From: an uncultured Saprospiraceae bacterium
GTDB taxonomy: Bacteria; Bacteroidota; Bacteroidia; Chitinophagales; Saprospiraceae
Direction of reading: 5' to 3'
Length of the DNA stretch: 49,599 nucleotides
Assembly: GCA_937139495.1 (NCBI GenBank)
Contig: CAKZQC010000009.1
Span: forward strand, 1-49,599
Position 1 is the first letter of the stretch, and each line of letters opens with the position of its first letter. Shown here one piece after another: positions 1 to 35,727 of this stretch. Both the position numbers and the translations under genes were made by a program. Below the pieces are notes generated by a model that searched no databases, was not told where the DNA came from, and worked only from the letters and a program-made list of their open reading frames with translations.

Positions 1-35
1 TTCATGAGCGAAGCGAACTGGGTGGCTTGATGCTT

Positions 36-140
36 GGCATCAACTGTAGAGGCTCTTTTATTCGCCCTAGACTTTGCCTTGATTTGCTAATCAAACAAAT
101 CTATCTCTTTACCTAAATGCAACTTCTACTTGCATAATCT
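36..140 (+). repeat. Copy A of a ~105-nt conserved intergenic element, upstream of sbcC
   Basis: ggcatcaa ... cttgatttgctaatcaaacaaatctatctctttacctaaatgcaacttctactt aligns with 35587-35690 with the same internal spacing. Confidence 0.6.
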
Positions 141-201
141 TTAGTATTAGATAGAAATTTGTAATTTGGTTGCACATTTTCCAATTCGCAACGCCATAGA
201 C

Positions 202-4105: not shown

Positions 4106-6076
4106 CTAAAAATCGACGACTACTCTAGAGAAGTAGAATTGTAAGCTATTGATGGGCATTTTTTTGATGTGATTCTTGCCATGTGGGTTAATTAGACTAA
4201 CGATACCATTACTAATAGAGTCCAATGCGTAGGCGTGTCCTGCTACAATGCGTTCTTCTCCATCATCTTTGCTGGTCATCATGATCAATTCGCCTGCATT
4301 TCCACGTAGGTTATTACCGTTTTCGTCCAAGGCGTAATTAGCAGCCATATTAGGTGGGGTAGCGAAAGTAACGCCTATTTTCTTTTCGGCGGCTTCCAAT
4401 ATCATCTTGATAGCGTGTTCGTTATTGTCCGAAAATTCAAAACTTCTTCGAGGAGTACCAGTGAGGACAGCGTAAGCTTCTTCCGAAAACCCTGCATCAA
4501 TTTCGTCGTATCCGCCCATGAGTTTAGCGAATGCTTTTTCGAGTATGAGCGGCCACATTTCGCCTTCATCTTGTGAGCGAGCATAGAGAGCGTTATCTTC
4601 CGTTTTGCTGAACCAAACATCACCTTCTACTACTACATCAACGGCTTCAAAACCGACGGTAGAAGATTTGATATTGTTGTGTAGTTCGTCCTTGCTTCGT
4701 ACATTGATAGGGCGGTACAGCTTGACGGTAAAGGTACCATCGCTGTTAGCGGTTATCATGTCTTTGATTTTTTGTGGTCCTCCTTTGGAGTTGGCTATTG
4801 CGGAAAGCGAACACATAAAATAACAGTTACCTAAGGCACCTTGTATAATATCATAAGGATCAATTCCAGAGGCATCTCTATCGTCTGCGCCTACTTTGAA
4901 TAGGTCGTCTTCTGTCACTTTTTTCTTGACAAACTGTCTGCCATCTTCATTCTTAACGAAGCGATCCATTTTTTGATAGATAGCGCCTAGTTTTGGGTCT
5001 TCGCCCGTAATGGTGTCCACTACATTATGATTGATGGTTGGTTTTGGATTGCTCAAGCGATTGGTGTGCTGTTCTGTAATTTTTACTTTAGTGATATTCT
5101 TTTGTATCGTATCAAATAGAGTTTTGGTTTGCTTCGCCCAATTGCTGGTCAATGACTCAAATTCTTGTTGAATAGAATCGTTGCTTTTGTCAAATTTGAA
5201 GTTGAAATTTTCGTATTGATTGAGGAAACTATAAACAGCATCATGTTCTGGCATTGTTAATACGACTAAGTCACCTCCTGCTTTGTTGTAGGCGGGGGTG
5301 AAGATACTATTGGCTTGATTATAGGCACTTGTAATAGTGTCTCTCAATTGGACGAGTCCATTTACTTGCGTATTGGAAGATTGTACTGGATTGGCTTCTA
5401 CCGAATTGGTGTCGATAACGGTGCTGTCGGTTGTGTTGGACTGCTCAGTAGTCGTATCCTGCCAAGTGGTATCTTCTGGGATAGTCGTCGTTGTGTCTTG
5501 CCAAGTGGTGGTGTCTTCTGGCGTTGTATTGGTGTCTGTTGTATCTTCCCAATTATTGGTGGGTTCTTCTTCGTCTGCTGTGATTTCTTCGTCTGCCATG
5601 ATTCCTGTGCGTTGAATAATCGCTTCAAAATTGGCGTGGTATTTTTTTACTCTTTGGTCGTATTCATTGGTGATTTGCCCAAAAATATCTTGTGTACTTT
5701 GTTGGCTAGATTGGAACGTGCTATCAAAGGTATAGTAGGCAGAGCGAAAAGCGTCCAGTATATCATATTGACTACGAGTCATGAAAATCATACCGCCACT
5801 AAGGTCTTTCGTCTTCAAAAATGCGTCGGCATTTTTGCGGATTGCTTCCATTTTTTTCATCAAGCTATCCAGTTTAGCGAAGTCATTGTCTTCACCTTCT
5901 TCTTGTGCATGTGCTTGCTTGACAGAGTCAATAAGAGATTCTCTCAAGGTATTGATTTGAGCTTTTTGTTCCGAAAACTTAGGGTCTTCGCTTACTTGGT
6001 TGCCTACTTTTTGGTAGGTTTTGTCCCATTTGTTGACCAATGCAATGAGTGTCTGCAATCGCTGTACTAAAATCAT
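4106..6076 (-). CDS. Calpain-like (peptidase C2 family) cysteine protease with N-terminal helical region and Thr/Asp-rich repeat linker
   Basis: C-terminal half contains DPYDIIQGALGNCYFMCSLSAIA, matching the calpain catalytic-Cys signature QGxLGDCW. There is no signal peptide. The middle region has TTWQDTTT repeats. Confidence 0.65.
   Translation of the reverse strand: MILVQRLQTLIALVNKWDKTYQKVGNQVSEDPKFSEQKAQINTLRESLIDSVKQAHAQEEGEDNDFAKLDSLMKKMEAIRKNADAFLKTKDLSGGMIFMTRSQYDILDAFRSAYYTFDSTFQSSQQSTQDIFGQITNEYDQRVKKYHANFEAIIQRTGIMADEEITADEEEPTNNWEDTTDTNTTPEDTTTWQDTTTTIPEDTTWQDTTTEQSNTTDSTVIDTNSVEANPVQSSNTQVNGLVQLRDTITSAYNQANSIFTPAYNKAGGDLVVLTMPEHDAVYSFLNQYENFNFKFDKSNDSIQQEFESLTSNWAKQTKTLFDTIQKNITKVKITEQHTNRLSNPKPTINHNVVDTITGEDPKLGAIYQKMDRFVKNEDGRQFVKKKVTEDDLFKVGADDRDASGIDPYDIIQGALGNCYFMCSLSAIANSKGGPQKIKDMITANSDGTFTVKLYRPINVRSKDELHNNIKSSTVGFEAVDVVVEGDVWFSKTEDNALYARSQDEGEMWPLILEKAFAKLMGGYDEIDAGFSEEAYAVLTGTPRRSFEFSDNNEHAIKMILEAAEKKIGVTFATPPNMAANYALDENGNNLRGNAGELIMMTSKDDGEERIVAGHAYALDSISNGIVSLINPHGKNHIKKMPINSLQFYFSRVVVDF
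5457..5573 (-). repeat. Three tandem ~39-nt coding repeats (PEDTTWQDTTTTI units) inside the calpain-like gene
   Basis: The units tcctgccaagtggtatcttctgg and tcttgccaagtggtggtgtcttctgg are directly visible in the sequence. Confidence 0.7.
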
Positions 6077-8946: not shown

Positions 8947-10545
8947 TTACGATTCTTCGGATAGTATCAAGAAACGCTTATCCAATACATCAAGATGTTG
9001 TATTAAGCTATCTACAAAATCGTCACCATAGCGAACGTAGTACGCCAAAAAATTGTCATAACGTTCTTGTAGCCCATTGCTTGGAAATAGTTTTTCTTTG
9101 ATGTTTTTGATGGCGTTAAGAGCCGTTTCGTGATTGTTTTTTTCTGCACGGACAAGCTTTTTTTCTATTTTATCAATACTGTTGATAATCTGAGCTTGTG
9201 TACCCAATACCGCTTTTTCGAGCGTTGGGTCTATCTTGATAGCGTGCTTCAATAGGTCTTCCAAAATACGATTGAGCTGCTCTTTTTGAGTTGTCAAGGA
9301 GAGTTCATGTTCTGTATTTTCGAGCGTATATTGCTTTAGCAATCTATCGGTATCTTCAAATATTTGAGCAATCGTTAAGCCTGCTTTTGCTACTTTTTGA
9401 GTCATGCCTTTGTCTATCCAGAGTACCGAACAGCGTCGGAGAAGCATGGGGTAGGGAACGCCAAAATGTTGAAATTGGGTTTTGCGCTCCAACCAATATG
9501 CCAATTCTCCACCACCACCAATGTACGCCAAATTGGGCAGTATCGTCTCTTGATAGAGTGGTCGCAAAATGACATTGGGACTAAATTTTTGAGGGTTTTT
9601 GTCTAGCTCTTGCAGTATTTCTTCTTCCGAAAATACCAATTCGGTATCCAATACTTGGTACTGCTTGCCTTGCTGCACAATACGGCTACGTTTGTTAGCC
9701 GTCAGGTAAAAAAGGTTGATTTCTCTAGCGTACGCTTGATTGCTAAATCCTGCTTGAGTTAGTTGTTCGGCTGTTTTTTCCAATATTTCCTTGGAAGGCT
9801 GGTGTAGTAGTTCTTCCTTGAATATAGCTTTCATTTGCGACTTGAAAACAGCTGCTTGAGCATTGCAAATAACTAAACCATGCTTGCCAAATATCCAGTT
9901 GACAAACTGCGTATGTGCCTCGCCATAGTTGGCACTGGTGGTGTAGATTTCGGTGAGCTTTTCGCTCAATTTAGCTGCTCTAGGGCTATTGCCTAATATT
10001 TCTTTGGTTTGTGCCAATACTTGGTCAAAACCTTGTAGCTGATAAGCCCCAACAGAACCACCTTGATGCTCGTCCCAGCTGATTTTGTTGCCAAACAAAT
10101 TGAAATGATTAACCTCTTCAAAATCATGGTCTTCGCCACCTGTCCAGAAGATCGGCACAAAATCAAAAGTAGGATAAGTAGCTTTTAGTTTTTTGGCTAA
10201 ATTGATGGTAGAAACAATCTTATATATACTATACAAAGGACCTGTAAACAGGTTGGGCTGGTGTGCCGTCGTGACCGTATAAGTGTCCGTTTTTTGTAGC
10301 CGTTTTATATTATCGAGCGTAGCGGAAGATGTTTCGATAGATTGATATTGCTGCTCCAGAGCAGCTACCAAAATAGCTCTTTTTTGTGGGTCAAAATCTT
10401 GCTTGGTAGCGATGACTTGTTCAAATTGTTCGACCTGAGTCGAATACTCAAAGAACGGTTGTAGGGCAGCTACTTGTTGTTGATACGCAAGATCAATGGA
10501 AGAGAGTTGTGGAATTTGATCAAAATCCAGTGCAGTAAGCTTCAT
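8947..10545 (-). CDS. bshC: Bacillithiol biosynthesis cysteine-adding enzyme BshC
   Basis: About 530 aa. Contains the AYIGGGGELAYWLE motif, which is the YxGGGxEx-AYW hallmark of BshC. Lies in the same window as bshB1. Confidence 0.7.
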   Translation of the reverse strand: MKLTALDFDQIPQLSSIDLAYQQQVAALQPFFEYSTQVEQFEQVIATKQDFDPQKRAILVAALEQQYQSIETSSATLDNIKRLQKTDTYTVTTAHQPNLFTGPLYSIYKIVSTINLAKKLKATYPTFDFVPIFWTGGEDHDFEEVNHFNLFGNKISWDEHQGGSVGAYQLQGFDQVLAQTKEILGNSPRAAKLSEKLTEIYTTSANYGEAHTQFVNWIFGKHGLVICNAQAAVFKSQMKAIFKEELLHQPSKEILEKTAEQLTQAGFSNQAYAREINLFYLTANKRSRIVQQGKQYQVLDTELVFSEEEILQELDKNPQKFSPNVILRPLYQETILPNLAYIGGGGELAYWLERKTQFQHFGVPYPMLLRRCSVLWIDKGMTQKVAKAGLTIAQIFEDTDRLLKQYTLENTEHELSLTTQKEQLNRILEDLLKHAIKIDPTLEKAVLGTQAQIINSIDKIEKKLVRAEKNNHETALNAIKNIKEKLFPSNGLQERYDNFLAYYVRYGDDFVDSLIQHLDVLDKRFLILSEES

Positions 10546-16379: not shown

Positions 16380-17096
16380 ATGAAACTAGATATATTAGCA
16401 ATTGGAGTACACCCCGATGATGTAGAATTGTCTTGTGCAGGAACACTCCTACACCACGTCCAAATGGGGAAAAAGGTAGGCATACTTGACTTGACAGCAG
16501 GCGAACTCGGGACTCGTGGCAGTGCCGAAATAAGAATGAAAGAAGCAGAGGCGGCTTCGAGAATGATGGGTGCTGCTGTTCGTGTTAACTTAGGTATGGC
16601 AGATGGTTTTTTTGAGTACGACAAAGAAAATCTGCTCGAAATTATAGAGATTATTCGCCTTTTTCAGCCCGAAATTATACTGACAAATGCCATTAGTGAC
16701 CGTCACCCTGACCACGGCAGAGCTGCCAAGCTGACGGCTGATGCGTGTTTTTATAGTGGATTGATCAAGATAGAAACAAAATGGGAGGACGAAGTGCAAG
16801 CACCTTGGAGACCAAAAACTGTGTATCATTATGTACAGGATTATTATTTGGAGCCTGATTTTGTAGTAGATATTACGCCTTATGTCGAGAAGAAAATTGA
16901 CATTATTCAGTGTTACAAAACACAATTCTACGATCCAGATTCTAAAGAGAATAATACACCAATTTCTACTAAATCTTTCTTGGAATTAATAACAGGAAAA
17001 GCTCAATTGTTAGGCAGACCTGCGGGCTTCGAATACGCCGAAGCGTTTACCAAAACTAGAACAGTAGGGGTTAAGAACTTATTTGATTTGCATTAA
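16380..17096 (+). CDS. bshB1: Bacillithiol biosynthesis deacetylase BshB1 (LmbE/PIG-L family)
   Basis: N-terminus ILAIGVHPDDVELSCAGTLL and GELGTRG are characteristic of BshB1/LmbE. 238 aa. Confidence 0.8.
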   Translation: MKLDILAIGVHPDDVELSCAGTLLHHVQMGKKVGILDLTAGELGTRGSAEIRMKEAEAASRMMGAAVRVNLGMADGFFEYDKENLLEIIEIIRLFQPEIILTNAISDRHPDHGRAAKLTADACFYSGLIKIETKWEDEVQAPWRPKTVYHYVQDYYLEPDFVVDITPYVEKKIDIIQCYKTQFYDPDSKENNTPISTKSFLELITGKAQLLGRPAGFEYAEAFTKTRTVGVKNLFDLH

Positions 17097-17563: not shown

Positions 17564-18952
17564 ATGCAACGAATTATAATCAGGAATTTTTTGGGAATAA
17601 AAGAAGCAGACATTCGTATCAATAAGGTATTGGTTCTGATAGGCGAGCAAGCTAGTGGCAAAAGTACCTTAGCTAAGTTGATTTATTTCTTTCAGACCTT
17701 AAAAGATGATATTTTTGATGCCGTCTATACAAATGATACTGATAGCGATTTTGATGACGATTTTTTTTTAAAAATAGTAGCTAAAAAATTTTATGAATAT
17801 TTTGGTTTCCTTCATGGTTGGGATAGTTTTGATGTAGTGTATTATTATAGTTCTGGGAAAATAATGTGCTTAAACCATAATTCTAAGAAGGGAACTTTTA
17901 CCAAAGAAACAAATAAGGAATTTGATGACTTGCTTTATAAGACTTGCGATAACGCAATGAAAGAACTATCGGGGTTGTCCTCGTCAAAGAATAGTAAAAG
18001 TGCTTATCTTAATCAAGCACAACGATTCAAAACAGCACAAAAATTCACTAAAAAACTGAATCAAATATTTGAATCTAAACAGGAAGACTACCTATACACG
18101 ATAGCAGGAAGAAATGCTACAGTAGCCTATTCAGGTTTATTTGAAAAATATCTTTTTCACGCCCTCGAATCTGCTATGGAAGAAAGCAGAAAGCAAAATA
18201 CTCCTAGAAAAAAATCCCAAAATATTGAAGAAATATTGATGTTGGATTTTATCAAAAAAGTAGAAACTATCAAAAGTCGCCTACTAAAATCAGGTGGTTT
18301 GGAAGGGATACTCGCAGAATCGGATAATAAAGCAGTACTAGAAGTAGCTGTATCAAAGATAGAAAGCATACTGAAAGGAAAATACATCTATGACAATGGA
18401 GAGGAAAAAATAGTGCTGGATACGAAAAATGATAGGTACGTCGCTTTAAAAAATGCCTCCTCTGGACAGCAGGAAATAATACGAATATTGCAAGATTTAT
18501 TTTTGATTATTGCTGACAAGCAACCCGTGATGCGCATTATCGAAGAGCCAGAAGCCAACCTTTTTCCTGTGGCTCAAAAAGCAGTCATTGAGTTGATGGC
18601 ATTGATGGTATCGAGTGTCAAAGATTCGCAAATTATCCTGACTACTCATAGTCCTTATATCCTTTCTGTTCTCAATAATTTGCTTTTCGCAAAAAGAGTG
18701 GCTACCAAAAATCCCGCAACACGACTAGCGGTGAACGCTGTGATAGCAGAAAATCAATGGTTAGACGCCAATGAAGTGAGTGTTTACTCACTCGGTAATA
18801 GTTATGATAAGCAGGCGGATTACTGTCGAAATTTATTGAATCCAAAAACAGGAACAATTGACCAAAATTATCTAGATAGTGTATCTGGTATGTTAGGAGA
18901 AGAGTTTGATGAACTATTTGAAATTCATGCTAAATCCTACGTTAATGACTAA
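17564..18952 (+). CDS. OLD/ABC-type ATPase (AAA_15/AAA_21-like), defence-associated
   Basis: N-terminus IRNFLGIKEADIRINKVLVLIGEQASGKSTL contains the Walker A. ABC signature SSGQQE. Walker B/D-loop MRIIEEPEANLFP. H-loop ILTTHSPYIL. There is no TOPRIM or nuclease domain in this protein. Confidence 0.8.
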   Translation: MQRIIIRNFLGIKEADIRINKVLVLIGEQASGKSTLAKLIYFFQTLKDDIFDAVYTNDTDSDFDDDFFLKIVAKKFYEYFGFLHGWDSFDVVYYYSSGKIMCLNHNSKKGTFTKETNKEFDDLLYKTCDNAMKELSGLSSSKNSKSAYLNQAQRFKTAQKFTKKLNQIFESKQEDYLYTIAGRNATVAYSGLFEKYLFHALESAMEESRKQNTPRKKSQNIEEILMLDFIKKVETIKSRLLKSGGLEGILAESDNKAVLEVAVSKIESILKGKYIYDNGEEKIVLDTKNDRYVALKNASSGQQEIIRILQDLFLIIADKQPVMRIIEEPEANLFPVAQKAVIELMALMVSSVKDSQIILTTHSPYILSVLNNLLFAKRVATKNPATRLAVNAVIAENQWLDANEVSVYSLGNSYDKQADYCRNLLNPKTGTIDQNYLDSVSGMLGEEFDELFEIHAKSYVND

Positions 18953-27668: not shown

Positions 27669-29384
27669 ATGACCTCGAAACAAACACAAATAGACACGAA
27701 AAAAATACAGACCTTAACTATTGAAAAAATATTGACTATTGTTGATGTTTTTCATGTAGCTCCTTATCAGAGGGGCTATCGTTGGGGGACAGAGCAGGTA
27801 TTGGCATTGCTCAATGATATTAATGGGAATGCAGATGGTTTTTATTGCTTACAGCCAATTGTAGTAGCTGACTTGTCTGAGACAGAAAAGCCTAAAAAAT
27901 GGGAATTGATAGATGGGCAGCAGCGCATGACTACTATCTTTTTGATATTGCATGCGTTGAAGGACGTTGAGGAAATATACCGTTTAGATTATCAAACAAG
28001 GAAAGAAACATGTACATACTTGGAGGAAATAGGAGAAAACTACGATATTGTTACTAACCTAGAAAAGAATGATGATATTAATAATATTGATAGTCGTTGT
28101 ATTCATAACAGTGTAACCGAAATAAATAAATGGCTGAAGGATAGTGAAATAGATAAAGAAATTTTCAAGAATAAACTACTCCAAAAAACGCTACTTATTT
28201 GGTATCCAGTTTATAATGCTGATGTCAATGCTGAACAAGTATTCCTTAATCTCAATAGTGGTAAAATTAGGCTCAATAGTTCAGAGCTGATTAAGGCACT
28301 TTTTATATTTGATATAGAAAAAGGCGATAAAAAAGACAAGAAAAGTTGGGAGTTGAAAGAAATTAAAAAACAGACATTTGCTCAAGAGTGGGACGCTATC
28401 GAAAAAGGACTACACAATGACAAATTGTGGTACTTCTTGCAGCCGCTACAATCCAATAATGCTCATACTCGTATTGGGTTGTTGTTTGATTTGATTAGTG
28501 ATAGAAAGGGCAATGAAAATCCACTTCATGCGTACCAATATTATAGTAAAGATTCAACAAAATTAGACTGGGATAAGGTCAAACAGCACTATCAGACGAT
28601 ACAAAGCTGGTACAATAACATAGAGCTTTTTCACCGTATTGGTTATCTGGTCAATAGCAGTGCGAAGCATACTTTTGGCGATTTGATGACAGATTTGAGC
28701 TCAAAGCAAAAAAGTGAAGTAAAGGCGGAATTGGAAGAGAAAATAAAGCAGCATTTTAAAAAGCGTACTGAAATAACAGATGGCAATATTGATGCGTTGA
28801 CTTATAGCAATAAGAAAGAAAAAACTCAATGTCAAGATGTACTGCTGTGGCACAATATCATAACGACAGAACAACTGCTAGTACAGCAGCGTTTTCCCTT
28901 TTATTTGTACCAAAAAGAAAAATGGTCGCTAGAGCATATCCACCCACAAAATCCAAATGAAAAGGATAGAGAAGAATGGCAAAAAGGATTGGCAGAGATG
29001 CTTGGAAAAGAAGGACAACTTACTGAAGAGCAAAAAAAACTAGCAAGTGAAAAAACAGTAGAAGAAAGGCAAAAGGAACTAGAGGAGGAACATGGTGAAC
29101 TGTTGAATACGATTGGTAATTTAGTACTGTTGGATAGGCAATCGAATAGTAGTTTATCCAATAATAATTTTCAAGAAAAAAGACGACTGTTACTGGATAG
29201 GGAAGGCGGCAAGAAAAACTATATTCCTGTAGCTACTTTGCACGCCTTCCTGAAGAAATATAATAATACAACAGAACCAGTCTCGTTGACGTATTGGACA
29301 GCAGAAGATTCGGCAGCTTATCAAGCTGATATAGAGAAAAGTATCAAAGACTTATTATCGCAAACTCCAAACCCTCAAAAGTAA
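27669..29384 (+). CDS. GmrSD-like type IV restriction endonuclease (DUF262 + DUF1524)
   Basis: N-terminal DUF262 motifs YQRGYRW and DGQQRMTT. C-terminal DUF1524 His-Me finger region WSLEHIHPQNPN ... GNLVLLDRQSNSSLSNN. Confidence 0.8.
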   Translation: MTSKQTQIDTKKIQTLTIEKILTIVDVFHVAPYQRGYRWGTEQVLALLNDINGNADGFYCLQPIVVADLSETEKPKKWELIDGQQRMTTIFLILHALKDVEEIYRLDYQTRKETCTYLEEIGENYDIVTNLEKNDDINNIDSRCIHNSVTEINKWLKDSEIDKEIFKNKLLQKTLLIWYPVYNADVNAEQVFLNLNSGKIRLNSSELIKALFIFDIEKGDKKDKKSWELKEIKKQTFAQEWDAIEKGLHNDKLWYFLQPLQSNNAHTRIGLLFDLISDRKGNENPLHAYQYYSKDSTKLDWDKVKQHYQTIQSWYNNIELFHRIGYLVNSSAKHTFGDLMTDLSSKQKSEVKAELEEKIKQHFKKRTEITDGNIDALTYSNKKEKTQCQDVLLWHNIITTEQLLVQQRFPFYLYQKEKWSLEHIHPQNPNEKDREEWQKGLAEMLGKEGQLTEEQKKLASEKTVEERQKELEEEHGELLNTIGNLVLLDRQSNSSLSNNNFQEKRRLLLDREGGKKNYIPVATLHAFLKKYNNTTEPVSLTYWTAEDSAAYQADIEKSIKDLLSQTPNPQK

Positions 29385-29390
29385 ATTCCC

Positions 29391-31889
29391 ATGATTAATG
29401 AATCACAAGCAGAACAGCAATATAATTTACGTAAATTATTAGGCGAATACACTATCGAAATTCCGCCTATACAGCGAGATTATGCCCAAGGTAGAGTAGA
29501 TGATACTAGAGTGACTACCATACGAGAACAGTTTGTAAGTACCTTGTTGGATACACTCCAAGAAGGTGATAGCTTAGGATTGGACTTTATTTATGGCAAG
29601 TCATTTAACAAAGAACTGCGACTGAATCAACAGAAAAAAGAAGAGGCACTCGAATCTCTTTTGCAGCCAATTAAGAAGTACAGCGAGGAGATAGATTGTA
29701 CCATTACCTACAAAATAACAGCTACATTAAATACAAAGGAATCGGGAGAAAAGGTACTTATTCTGTTGGACGGACAGCAACGAGTGACGACACTATTTTT
29801 GCTGCATTGGTGGGTCGGGGCAATAGCAAAAAAAGATCTAGCACTACTCAAAAAATTTAGTTATAAAACACGTAGCAGTTCTACAGATTTTTGTGCCAAA
29901 CTCATAGAGAACGCCAACACGGTTATTGCAGACCAGGAAAATTATAATAGTATAGAAGAAAATATTGTGGATCAAAGTTGGTTTGCAGATAGCTGGCTGG
30001 CTGATCCTACGGTACAGGGTATGCTAGTGATGTTGTGCGAGATAGAAAAGCAGGCTAAAAGCAAAGCATTAGATTATGAAAATGTGTGGGCAAATCTTGA
30101 CAAAATTACTTTCGATTTTTTTGATATGAAAGAACATGGCTTGTCTGATGAGTTGTATGTCAAAATGAATGCAAGGGGGAAGCACTTGAGTGATTTTGAA
30201 AACTTCAAAGCATGGTTGTTAAAGCATATTACTAAGAAAGAATACAGTATTGCCAATGAAAATTGGGAAACTAAACTAGATAAAGATTGGCTTGATTTGT
30301 TTTGGCGGGTAACTTCTGAAGAAAAATCGTTGGAATTAGAAGAGCAGATAAAAGTAACAGACAGCTATTACTTATCTTTTTTCAAGACGATGGCTTTGTA
30401 TGGCTATATCTTACGAGAGAATCCAAAGGATGAGGAAAGAGAAAAACAAGAAAAAAAGGTCTACGAGCTATTCACAATCAATCAATTTGTCCCAACCCAA
30501 ACCTATGAAGATTATGAGCTTTTTGATGAAAAAACTATCAATAATGCCTTTAAGGTATTAGAAGTTTTGAGAGATAAAACTAAACTTGATTTATTAGAAT
30601 GTATTGTGAAAAAATATTGGAAATTTCCTTTTACCAAGAAAGACGAATTCAAGTCATTTAAGAATGCCTTGCTTAAAGATTTTGGGGCGAAATCACAACC
30701 TCATCAGGTTTTTATATTTTCTATTGTTTCGCTTATGTTGAAAAAAGACATTACTGAAAGTAATAAAGCAGCATTGGAGCAACAAGTACGTTTACAGCGA
30801 AACTTGATTTATAATCAAACTATACAATCTAAAGAAAATGTTTTTGATGCCATTCAACAAATTAATGAATTTGATTATAAAATCTCATCGATAGCTAGGC
30901 TATTTTTTGCGACTCAAAAACAACGCGAAGAGGAAAAAAAGAAACTTGAATTATTAGAGAAAGATGACAAATGGTTGGATGCAATCGAAAAAGCAGAAAA
31001 TCACTTTTACTTATATGGACAGATTGGATTTTTGTTGGACTTGGCGAAGGTAGATGATGGCAAGTATGATTTGAAATTATTTGAAGACTACTACGGTAAG
31101 ATAGAATCTTTGTTAGAACTTATTGAAAAAGAAAAGTCTAATGAACACTTGTTACAACGTTATCTATTAGCTAAGTATGATGAGGAACAGATATTACAAA
31201 AATTTGGAGATTGGAGGCAAAGGAGTCGTATCTACAGTAATACACATGCTAACAATAGAGAAAGAAATGAAAATTGGCGTAATTTATTCAAGAATCAAAA
31301 GCTTAAAGAGATACTTGATGATTTTTGTGGGATAGCTACCGGTAATGATAACGAAGTTAGGATTAATGAAGCTAGAGCTATCATTAATGATTATGTACCA
31401 TCAATGCAGCCTAATAATTGGAAAGGGATGCTGAGCGAAAAATATAAAGCGTGTTTTGACTACATGAAGAAAAATATCATCATAATAGGTGACAATGAAT
31501 ATGAAGTAGAAATATTGAAGGGGAATGATTTTAGGTCAGACCATACCTCGCTATATCTGTACATGTTGTTCTTGGAGCTAACTAAAAATAAGGAAACGAA
31601 TAATTGGCTAAAAACAACTACGGTACGCCATGATTCTATCAAGGGCGATACTAACAGAAAAAACGATAATTATCCTTGGATACAATTAGAGCCAGAAGGT
31701 AAGCCAAATATATGGATTAGCTTTTTGTCAGATACAGATTCAGCTAGATTCATAATAGAATACCTGAACGAAGAGGAGGAGGTTCAAATATGTGAATGGA
31801 TACCTAATGAAGAAATTAATATCTATGATTATATAGCAAAAGCAGTTATTAGAATACAAGAAATAATAGAAAATCCACCAAACGAATAA
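29391..31889 (+). CDS. DUF262 domain protein with long uncharacterised C-terminal region (GmrS-like paralogue)
   Basis: N-terminal IPPIQRDYAQGR and LLDGQQRVTTLFLL are DUF262 motifs. The remaining ~550 aa have no recognisable motif. Starts 7 nt after the upstream gene. Confidence 0.7.
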   Translation: MINESQAEQQYNLRKLLGEYTIEIPPIQRDYAQGRVDDTRVTTIREQFVSTLLDTLQEGDSLGLDFIYGKSFNKELRLNQQKKEEALESLLQPIKKYSEEIDCTITYKITATLNTKESGEKVLILLDGQQRVTTLFLLHWWVGAIAKKDLALLKKFSYKTRSSSTDFCAKLIENANTVIADQENYNSIEENIVDQSWFADSWLADPTVQGMLVMLCEIEKQAKSKALDYENVWANLDKITFDFFDMKEHGLSDELYVKMNARGKHLSDFENFKAWLLKHITKKEYSIANENWETKLDKDWLDLFWRVTSEEKSLELEEQIKVTDSYYLSFFKTMALYGYILRENPKDEEREKQEKKVYELFTINQFVPTQTYEDYELFDEKTINNAFKVLEVLRDKTKLDLLECIVKKYWKFPFTKKDEFKSFKNALLKDFGAKSQPHQVFIFSIVSLMLKKDITESNKAALEQQVRLQRNLIYNQTIQSKENVFDAIQQINEFDYKISSIARLFFATQKQREEEKKKLELLEKDDKWLDAIEKAENHFYLYGQIGFLLDLAKVDDGKYDLKLFEDYYGKIESLLELIEKEKSNEHLLQRYLLAKYDEEQILQKFGDWRQRSRIYSNTHANNRERNENWRNLFKNQKLKEILDDFCGIATGNDNEVRINEARAIINDYVPSMQPNNWKGMLSEKYKACFDYMKKNIIIIGDNEYEVEILKGNDFRSDHTSLYLYMLFLELTKNKETNNWLKTTTVRHDSIKGDTNRKNDNYPWIQLEPEGKPNIWISFLSDTDSARFIIEYLNEEEEVQICEWIPNEEINIYDYIAKAVIRIQEIIENPPNE

Positions 31890-35266: not shown

Positions 35267-35586
35267 GTCTATCTTTTTTGGTGGAACGAGCAGCCCAAGG
35301 CACTCAAATTTAGTTGATTGGCAAGTTATAAAATATCTGTCTCATTTGGAGGGAGATGAGAAAACGAAAATAAAAAAGTGACAGAAGGCGTGTATCTTTT
35401 GTAGAGGGAGCTGTCTTGGTTTTGTCCTACATGGTAGTTTGTCGACAAAAAGGTAAACGAAACGGTATGTTCATCAAAGAACGACGCTTTTTCTACTTTA
35501 TCGCAAATAAATCGTATTATTGCACTTTATTAAAGGTTATGTAAGTAAATTTCGTATGGCGAAGAAAATATCTTTTTCCGATTAGC

Positions 35587-35690
35587 GGCATCAAATGCTC
35601 GCCAAGTAGCTATGGCTACTTGACTGTGCTTTGATTTGCTACTCAAAAAAATCTATCTCTCCACCTATCATACAAAATCTACTTAAATAA
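35587..35690 (+). repeat. Copy B of the conserved intergenic element, upstream of ychF
   Basis: ggcatcaa ... ctttgatttgctactcaaaaaaatctatctctccacctatcatacaaaatctactt. Confidence 0.6.
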
Positions 35691-35727
35691 CCTTTATTTT
35701 TAATATTATAATTAATACGATCATAAA

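What the first reader, a model, noticed from the sequence alone, without database searches (positions are those of the whole stretch)
36..140. ~105-nt conserved element repeated upstream of sbcC and ychF
The two segments 36-140 and 35587-35690 align at roughly two-thirds identity. They share the blocks ggcatcaa, cttgatttgct, aaatctatctct and tctactt, with the same 45-46-nt spacing between the first two. Each copy ends 40-60 nt before the start codon of an unrelated plus-strand gene. I found no other copies in the other intergenic regions of this window. It may be a shared promoter or 5'-leader regulatory element, or a small dispersed repeat. It also means sbcC here is preceded by non-coding DNA rather than sbcD, at least in the 200 nt visible.
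Basis: seen in the sequence. Interest (0 to 1): 0.5.

Follow-up and report, generated by a model that had tools for sequence, protein, structure and literature searches.

The report
Small mobile palindromic repeat (MITE-like)
The repeat is real, but it is two copies of a roughly 160-base palindromic mobile DNA element that inserted upstream of two unrelated genes, not a conserved regulatory signal; this is an ordinary kind of bacterial junk/mobile DNA.

Summary

- **Structure.** Each copy is a ~160-nt imperfect palindrome. Copy B is 35532-35694, with 28-nt terminal inverted repeats that are 89% complementary. Copy A runs off the window start (window -18..141).
- **Location.** The window is a whole MAG contig from an uncultured Saprospiraceae bacterium, so copy A sits at a contig end.
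- **Empty site (decisive).** Two contigs from a strain with 98%-identical YchF have the same flanks but lack exactly 167 nt. That is the 163-nt element plus one of two flanking TATT copies.
- **Direction of change.** Two related species (YchF 89% and 85%) have an uninterrupted, conserved ychF promoter across that point. The element is therefore a derived insertion, about 9 nt after the -7 box, at the start of the ychF leader.
- **Searches.** There is no Rfam match, no transposase in the window, and no further copies in any collection I could search.

Best reading: a non-autonomous, MITE-like transposable element, and a new member of a known kind. Any regulatory effect would be a by-product. 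Low interest.

The parts
1..141 (+). Copy A of the element, truncated by the contig/window start. The full copy is 160 nt, window -18..141 = L001 32-191. It is a decayed copy whose left arm is poorly preserved.
   Evidence: Right arm is 75% identical to the right arm of copy B; A-left vs A-right is only 43%. DNA fold z = -2.0.
142..145 (.). TAGT immediately right of copy A. The matching left flank (TATT) lies outside the window, at L001 28-31. This is a possible degraded 4-nt target duplication (3/4 match).
79..108 (+). Best-conserved 30-nt core of the right arm, copy A. On the minus strand it contains TAGATTTG (103->96), which matches the Bacteroidota -7 consensus TAnnTTTG, with a TTG about 17 nt upstream, reading inward.
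   Evidence: (D2).
35515..35522 (+). Predicted native ychF -7 promoter box (TATTATTG). It aligns with TAAATTTG and TAGTTTTG in two related species.
   Evidence: Inference from the Bacteroidota promoter consensus; no transcription start site data.
35528..35531 (.). Left copy of the duplicated target TATT.
   Evidence: TATT occurs once in the empty site of L003/L004 and twice in the window.
35532..35694 (+). Copy B of the element: 163 nt, a complete, end-to-end imperfect palindrome, absent from the 98%-related strain.
   Evidence: empty site; inverted repeats; fold z = -5.7 and -5.3.
35531..35558 (+). Left terminal inverted repeat of copy B (TAAAGGTTATGTAAGTAAATTTCGTATG).
   Evidence: pair I1: 28 nt, 89% complementary.
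35603..35622 (+). Central perfect hairpin of copy B (CAAGTAGC-TATG-GCTACTTG), the axis of the palindrome.
35631..35660 (+). Best-conserved 30-nt core, copy B. The minus strand carries TAGATTTT (35655->35648) with TTTTG 17 nt upstream.
35669..35696 (+). Right terminal inverted repeat of copy B (CATACAAAATCTACTTAAATAACCTTTA).
   Evidence: pair I1.
35695..35698 (.). Right copy of the duplicated target TATT.

Best explanation
The two segments are two copies of a ~160-bp non-coding, palindromic, non-autonomous transposable element: a MITE-like element in an uncultured Saprospiraceae (Bacteroidota) genome.

**Shown**
- Copy B (35532-35694) has 28-nt terminal inverted repeats and is flanked by a duplicated TATT.
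- It is a derived insertion. A closely related strain and two related species have the uninterrupted site.
- It landed about 9 nt downstream of the predicted ychF -7 promoter box. This leaves the last 33 nt before the ATG untouched.
- Copy A (window -18..141) is an older, decayed copy 60 nt upstream of sbcC.

**Inferred**
- The element was moved in trans by a DDE-type transposase. That transposase would be encoded by a full-length insertion sequence elsewhere in the genome, would recognise the terminal repeats, and would make a staggered 2-4-nt cut at AT-rich TA(TT) targets.
- The two copies sit upstream of genes because AT-rich promoter regions are both preferred targets and tolerated sites.
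- If ychF is still transcribed from its old promoter, its mRNA now starts with a long hairpin of about 165 nt. The hairpin could alter mRNA stability or processing.
- The strongly conserved 30-nt core carries an inward-facing Bacteroidota-type promoter-like motif. It may be the relic of the parent element's transposase promoter or of a transposase binding site.
- Any regulatory effect on sbcC or ychF is a side effect, not the reason for the conservation.
For: - **Real repeat.** Score 48 vs 10.7±1.9 in shuffles; the core is unique to the two sites.
- **Palindromic architecture.** nhmmer finds an inverted self-match at 35529-35696. The inverted repeats are 28 nt and 89% complementary. Copy B folds end to end with z = -5.3 to -5.7. 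A four-arm alignment gives B-left/B-right 68% and A-right/B-right 75%.
- **Empty site.** It is seen in two independent Logan assemblies (L003, L004; YchF 98% identical). Fifty-five nt of left flank and 33 nt of right flank are identical to the window. The window has 167 extra nt: 163 plus a second TATT.
- **Outgroups.** L005-L008 (YchF 89%) and L009/L010 (85%) show a conserved promoter-like block. In L009 the stretch GCACCTTATTTTTAATAT runs continuously across the insertion point.
- **Non-coding.** The longest ORF overlapping the element is 42 aa, and no genes are called there in the public assembly.
- **Not a known RNA.** No Rfam family matches at gathering score, or at any meaningful E-value.
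- **Assembly breaks.** Two different assemblies break at copy A. The window contig starts 19 nt inside it; the ENA contig ends 31 nt outside it.
- **Typical for the class.** MITEs are reported to be widespread, about 90% intergenic and mostly genus-specific in prokaryotes, including Bacteroidota (bioRxiv 10.1101/2024.01.18.576219).
Against: - Only two copies are known. I could not show that the element is multi-copy genome-wide, because the source genome is not in the searchable collections.
- No cognate transposase or full-length insertion sequence was found. There is none in the window.
- The exact length of the target duplication is ambiguous (2-4 nt), because the palindrome termini overlap the TATT. 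Copy A shows only TATT/TAGT.
- No empty site could be found for copy A.
- The two copies are only about 70% identical, which is lower than in recently active MITE families.
- There are no transcription data, so every statement about effects on ychF or sbcC expression is inference.
Confidence: 0.85

Rival explanations
1. The element is a hairpin element moved as single-stranded DNA by a Y1 (HUH) transposase. It would be an IS200/IS605-derived palindrome-associated element, or REPIN-like. Such an element inserts just 3' of a specific tetranucleotide (TATT) without duplicating the target. The right-hand TATT would then be the element's own cleavage site.
For: Both copies have TATT immediately 5' of the left end. 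The element is strongly hairpin-forming as a single strand. The comparison of empty and filled sites cannot distinguish a 4-nt duplication from a 167-nt insertion 3' of TATT.
Against: The very termini are 28-nt inverted repeats of each other, and the whole element is one palindrome. That is the hallmark of cut-and-paste DDE-type MITEs. IS200/IS605 ends carry separate subterminal hairpins and are not mutually inverted (established knowledge). At 163 nt it is larger than typical REPINs. No Y1 or RAYT gene is in the window.
Confidence: 0.07
2. The element is, or has become, a functional mobile regulatory or small-RNA module. The conserved core promoter on the minus strand would drive a structured small RNA, or transcription towards the divergent neighbour. 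Selection on that function would explain why the 30-nt core is much better conserved than the rest.
For: The core has 2 mismatches in 30 nt, against 18 in the remaining 51 nt of the right arm. TTG-N17-TAGATTTG/T is present on the minus strand of both copies. The centre forms a hairpin in both copies despite different sequence.
Against: There is no Rfam match. The motif is imperfect in copy B (TAGATTTT). The core region was picked after seeing the data. The element is absent from a 98%-related strain, so it is dispensable at the ychF locus. No copies are seen in related species. There are no expression data.
Confidence: 0.05
3. The element is a conserved host cis-regulatory element (a shared promoter, operator or 5'-leader) that co-regulates sbcC and ychF.
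For: Both copies lie in the same orientation, 33-60 nt upstream of plus-strand start codons.
Against: The element is missing, with precise boundaries, from the same locus in a 98%-related strain. The orthologous ychF promoters of two related species are conserved without it. It is not found upstream of sbcC in relatives. It has the architecture of a transposon.
Confidence: 0.03

Closest known systems
Bacterial MITEs in general (non-autonomous derivatives of DDE-transposase insertion sequences), including those described in Bacteroidota such as the Porphyromonas gingivalis MITEs (PMC4596501) and the census in bioRxiv 10.1101/2024.01.18.576219
   Same: Small (about 160 bp), non-coding, with terminal inverted repeats and a short flanking direct duplication. 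Intergenic location, presence/absence polymorphism between strains, and restriction to a narrow lineage.
   Different: No sequence match to anything in the collections I could search. No cognate insertion sequence was identified. Only two copies were seen, and they are rather diverged (about 70%).
Correia elements (CREE/NEMIS) of Neisseria
   Same: By my own knowledge of that family: 100-155-bp elements with about 26-nt terminal inverted repeats and a duplication of TA. They insert close to genes, are co-transcribed into mRNA leaders as hairpins, and sometimes carry promoter-like boxes. Copy B here sits in a predicted 5' leader, begins its duplication with TA, and carries a promoter-like box.
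   Different: A different phylum and an unrelated sequence. The promoter motif here is of the Bacteroidota type and faces inward. No evidence of RNase III processing or IHF binding was tested. Not a member of that family.
ERIC / RU-1 and related enterobacterial intergenic palindromic repeats (PMC2759123)
   Same: An imperfect palindrome of 100-170 bp in intergenic, transcribed regions. It is MITE-like, and its copies are diverged.
   Different: Unrelated sequence and host. A clear terminal duplication and an empty site are documented here.
REPINs / IS200-IS605-derived palindromic elements
   Same: Hairpin-forming intergenic repeats. The same tetranucleotide (TATT) lies 5' of both copies.
   Different: The termini here are long mutual inverted repeats. 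The element is larger than typical REPINs. No Y1 or RAYT transposase is nearby.

Membership tests
MITE (miniature inverted-repeat transposable element) | Small size (tens to a few hundred bp) and no coding capacity | tested here: met
   163 nt (copy B) and 160 nt (copy A). The longest overlapping ORF is 42 aa. No gene is called there in the public assembly.
MITE (miniature inverted-repeat transposable element) | Terminal inverted repeats | tested here: met
   Copy B: 28 nt, 89% complementary, at the very ends. Copy A: the right end is conserved, the left end degraded.
MITE (miniature inverted-repeat transposable element) | Target-site duplication flanking the element | tested here: met
   Copy B: TATT occurs once in the empty allele and twice in the filled allele. 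The length is ambiguous (2-4 nt). Copy A: TATT/TAGT, 3 of 4.
MITE (miniature inverted-repeat transposable element) | Evidence of mobility: presence/absence polymorphism with an intact empty site | tested here: met
   L003/L004 (YchF 98%) lack exactly the element plus one TATT. Outgroups L005 and L009 are uninterrupted. No comparable data for copy A.
MITE (miniature inverted-repeat transposable element) | Multiple dispersed copies in the genome | tested here: inconclusive
   Two copies in 49.6 kb. The rest of the genome is not available. The core pattern gave only chance hits in genome, metagenome and viral collections.
MITE (miniature inverted-repeat transposable element) | A cognate autonomous insertion sequence with matching terminal repeats that supplies the transposase in trans | not testable with these tools
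   No transposase domain in the window's proteins. The source genome could not be searched.
IS630/Tc1-mariner-derived MITEs (e.g. Correia-like) | Duplication of exactly TA at the insertion site | tested here: inconclusive
   Both copies are compatible with a TA duplication. Copy B is equally compatible with TAT or TATT.
IS200/IS605-derived or REPIN-type hairpin elements | No terminal inverted repeats and no target duplication; separate subterminal hairpins; insertion 3' of a fixed 4-5-nt target | tested here: not met
   Long terminal inverted repeats are present. The fixed TATT 5' of both copies is compatible with this family, but the architecture is not.
Known structured RNA family (Rfam 15) | Match to a covariance model at gathering score | tested here: not met
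   No hits at gathering score in the whole window. Only chance-level hits (E > 0.6) in the two regions.

The most novel reading that the evidence does not exclude
The element is a mobile 'promoter plus hairpin' cassette. Its unusually conserved 30-nt core would be a working Bacteroidota-type promoter (TTG-N17-TAGATTTG), maintained by selection. Each insertion would then launch an antisense or divergent transcript or a MITE-borne small RNA, and would add a long hairpin to the neighbouring gene's leader. In that way it would rewire expression of genes such as ychF and sbcC in Saprospiraceae.
Probability: 0.1. Interest if true: 0.4.

Novelty: new member of a known kind. Interest (0 to 1): 0.17.

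Why it matters
It matters mainly for annotation. The shared sequence upstream of sbcC and ychF should be labelled as a mobile repeat, not as a regulon signal, and it explains why assemblies of this organism break at this point.

It adds an uncatalogued MITE-like family from an uncultured Saprospiraceae lineage. It also gives a clean natural filled/empty allele pair at the ychF promoter, which could be used to test how a 165-nt leader hairpin affects expression in Bacteroidota. Beyond that it is ordinary.

Tried and rejected
- **Rfam.** I scanned the whole window at gathering score and the two regions at E ≤ 10. Only chance hits came back (eukaryotic lncRNA and miRNA models), so I rejected a known RNA family.
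- **Core pattern in GTDB species genomes.** One hit, in a Ruminococcus MAG. The nhmmer match is confined to the core, so I rejected it as chance.
- **Core pattern in JGI metagenomes.** Two hits, both lying in what reads as the 3' end of a coding sequence, with no flanking similarity. Rejected.
- **Terminal-repeat and core patterns in viral contigs.** One chance hit inside a coding region. Rejected.
- **blastn of copy B against plasmids and phages.** No match.
- **nhmmer over about 170 kb of related loci, including Aureispira anguillae.** I used full-length and arm profiles. No further copies.
- **Search with the first 200 aa of SbcC.** I was looking for a close strain that would reveal an empty site and the left flank of copy A. 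The best hit was only 54% identical, so this led nowhere.
- **Exact look-ups of the window's YchF and tricorn protease translations.** Both returned nothing. The same YchF, queried as P0001, did work.
- **MAFFT global alignment of filled vs empty site.** It misaligned the large gap. I replaced it with an explicit flank comparison.
- **Short upstream ORFs (MSEANWVA / MAKKISFSD) as leader peptides.** Rejected: they lie inside the element's left arm and are not conserved.
- **An intrinsic terminator.** Rejected: the hairpins are not followed by T-runs on either strand.
- **A second breakpoint in L003/L004 left of 35472.** The 32 nt there share ACGGT...CATCAAAG with the window. They are probably just diverged intergenic DNA.

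Full report
**1. The observation**

The two segments are really similar. GGCATCAA and AAATCTATCTCT occur nowhere else in the window. The 30-nt core TTGATTTGCTAnTCAAAnAAATCTATCTCT matches only these two sites even with 3 mismatches allowed, with none expected in shuffles. A local alignment of window 1-200 against 35501-35727 scores 48. Composition-preserving shuffles give 10.7±1.9 (max 21), and the best other place in the window scores 19. An nhmmer profile of the two copies finds no third copy on the plus strand.

**2.

The same nhmmer search gave a significant minus-strand hit at 35529-35624 (E = 2.5e-8; extended to 35529-35696). Copy B is therefore an imperfect palindrome.

- The repeat finder reports 28-nt arms at 35531-35558 and 35669-35696, 89% complementary.
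- The stretch folds end to end, with z = -5.7 as RNA and -5.3 as DNA. The axis is a perfect central hairpin, CAAGTAGC-TATG-GCTACTTG (35603-35622).

The window is an entire 49,599-nt contig. The clusters of its own YchF and SbcC list a longest contig of exactly that length. Copy A therefore sits at a contig end.

An ENA metagenome contig with an identical SbcC (L001) reaches 50 nt further left. It shows that the similarity between A and B continues into a left arm. Aligning the four arms gives these identities:

| Arm pair | Identity |
|---|---|
| A-right vs B-right | 75% |
| B-left vs B-right | 68% |
| A-left vs its own right arm | 43% |

Copy A is thus a decayed copy (fold z = -2.0). Two different assemblies break within 50 nt of each other at copy A, which is typical behaviour at repeats or palindromes.

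**3. Organism**

The best named YchF relatives are Aureispira and Saprospira at 75-78% identity. The contig is therefore from an uncultured member of the Saprospiraceae (Bacteroidota).

**4. The decisive result: an empty site**

A YchF 98% identical to the window's is encoded on two Logan contigs from two different runs (L003, L004). Their upstream sequence is identical to the window for 55 nt (window 35472-35526). After one SNP, it then jumps straight to the 33 nt that precede the ATG.

- Window: ...GCACT-T-TATT-[163 nt]-TATT-TTTAATATT...
- Other strain: ...GCACT-C-TATT-TTTAATATT...

The difference is 167 nt: the element (35532-35694) plus a second TATT.

Two more distant relatives were recovered with their upstream regions: YchF 89% (L005-L008) and 85% (L009/L010). 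They share a conserved block, TTTAT..CAAA.AAAT.G followed by TAAATTTG or TAGTTTTG. This aligns with TATTATTG at window 35515-35522. In L009 the sequence GCACCTTATTTTTAATAT runs uninterrupted across the insertion point. The empty state is therefore ancestral, and the element is a derived insertion in the window's lineage.

TAnnTTTG is the -7 consensus of Bacteroidota housekeeping promoters (established knowledge). The insertion lies about 9 nt after that box, at the very beginning of the predicted ychF 5' leader. This is an inference; I have no transcription start site data.

**5. Ends**

Copy A, in the same register, is TATT-[GAAAGGTGAT...GCATAATCTT]-TAGT. Both copies are thus preceded by TATT and followed by TA. 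The target duplication is 2-4 nt and begins with TA. Its exact length is ambiguous because the palindrome termini overlap the TATT.

**6. Search for more copies or a parent element**

- There is no Rfam family.
- The core pattern gave one chance hit in 185,579 species genomes. It gave two chance hits in JGI metagenomes, in what reads as the end of a coding sequence with no flanking similarity.
- The terminal-repeat pattern gave one chance coding hit in viral contigs, and the core pattern gave none there.
- blastn against plasmids and phages found nothing.
- About 170 kb of related Saprospiraceae loci contain no copy.
- Pfam scans of 24 of the window's proteins show no transposase.

The source species is evidently not in the DNA collections I could scan. 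Genome-wide copy number and the cognate transposase therefore remain unknown. A search with the SbcC N-terminus found no close strain, so there is no empty site for copy A.

**7. How it most likely works**

*Shown:* a small, non-coding element with terminal inverted repeats and a flanking duplication, which is present or absent between near-identical strains.

*Inferred:*
- It is a non-autonomous element mobilised in trans by a transposase that binds the 28-nt ends and makes a short staggered cut at AT-rich TA(TT) sites.
- It accumulates upstream of genes because such AT-rich, non-coding sites are both preferred and tolerated.
- If the old ychF promoter still fires, the mRNA begins with an autonomous hairpin of about 165 nt, while the 33 nt before the AUG are unchanged.
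- The 30-nt core is clearly better conserved than the rest of the arm. On the minus strand of both copies it carries TTG-N17-TAGATTTG/T, a Bacteroidota-type promoter-like motif reading inward.
- The simplest reading is a relic of the parent element's transposase promoter or of a transposase binding site. A live promoter is the more interesting but less likely option.

**8. Comparison with known families**

It works like a bacterial MITE. It meets the tests for size, non-coding nature, terminal inverted repeats, target duplication and mobility. Copy number is inconclusive, and the cognate insertion sequence is untestable here.

It resembles Correia elements of Neisseria and ERIC/RU elements of enterobacteria in architecture and in sitting in mRNA leaders. 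It shares no sequence with them and is not a member of either. An IS200/IS605-type or REPIN-type origin is a minority rival: TATT lies 5' of both copies, but long mutual terminal repeats argue against it.

A recent census reports MITEs in most prokaryotic genera, about 90% intergenic and largely genus-specific, with tens of thousands in Bacteroidota (bioRxiv 10.1101/2024.01.18.576219). The kind is well known.

**9.

The side remark on sbcD holds. No sbcD precedes sbcC here, and in Aureispira anguillae sbcC also follows an unrelated secreted-protein gene.

**10. Verdict**

This is a real feature with an ordinary explanation: a new member of a known kind. Interest is low. It is useful mainly for correct annotation, and as a natural filled/empty allele pair at a promoter.

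Noticed in passing
window 22247-24730 (+): An 827-aa protein with Major Vault Protein domains: MVP_shoulder (E = 8.6e-31), Vault_3 and an SPFH/Band 7 domain. A bacterial homologue of the eukaryotic vault shell protein is unusual and may deserve its own look.
   Followed up: no
window 4106-6076 (-): A 656-aa protein carrying a calpain-type cysteine protease domain (Peptidase_C2), according to the precomputed Pfam hits for the identical ENA locus. This domain is uncommon in bacteria.
   Followed up: no
window 27669-29384 and 29391-31889 (+): Two adjacent GmrSD-family (modified-DNA restriction) genes. They sit between the E1 dehydrogenase / TerB-DnaJ genes and the tricorn protease gene. In the 89% relative (L005), E1_dh, TerB-DnaJ and tricorn are adjacent on one strand with no GmrSD genes. 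This suggests a defence-gene insertion plus an inversion in the window.
   Followed up: partly
window 17564-18952 and 18906-19508 (+): An AAA_15/AAA_21 ATPase (the 'AbiEii/OLD-like' type) followed by an overlapping 200-aa ORF with no Pfam match. This may be a two-gene defence or toxin-antitoxin module.
   Followed up: no
window 1 and L001 1-50: Both public assemblies of this organism break at copy A. The 49,599-nt contig starts 19 nt inside the element; the ENA contig k127_65586 ends 31 nt outside it. What lies upstream of sbcC in this genome is therefore unknown.
   Followed up: partly
L003/L004 1-32 vs window 35440-35471: The 98%-related strain's contigs both start at the same base, and their first 32 nt differ markedly from the window. 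Only ACGGT...CATCAAAG is shared. This is either a fast-diverging intergenic stretch or a second structural difference next to the insertion site.
   Followed up: partly
L015 1-72: In the closest other SbcC locus (52% identity, Logan ERR13834999), the contig also ends only 72 nt upstream of sbcC. The 72 nt show no similarity to the element.
   Followed up: partly
window 8947-10545 (-) and 16380-17096 (+): BshC (context) and a PIG-L family deacetylase that may be BshB-like. These point to bacillithiol biosynthesis genes in this Saprospiraceae genome.
   Followed up: no
whole window: No tRNA, rRNA or other Rfam family reaches gathering score anywhere in the 49.6 kb.
   Followed up: yes
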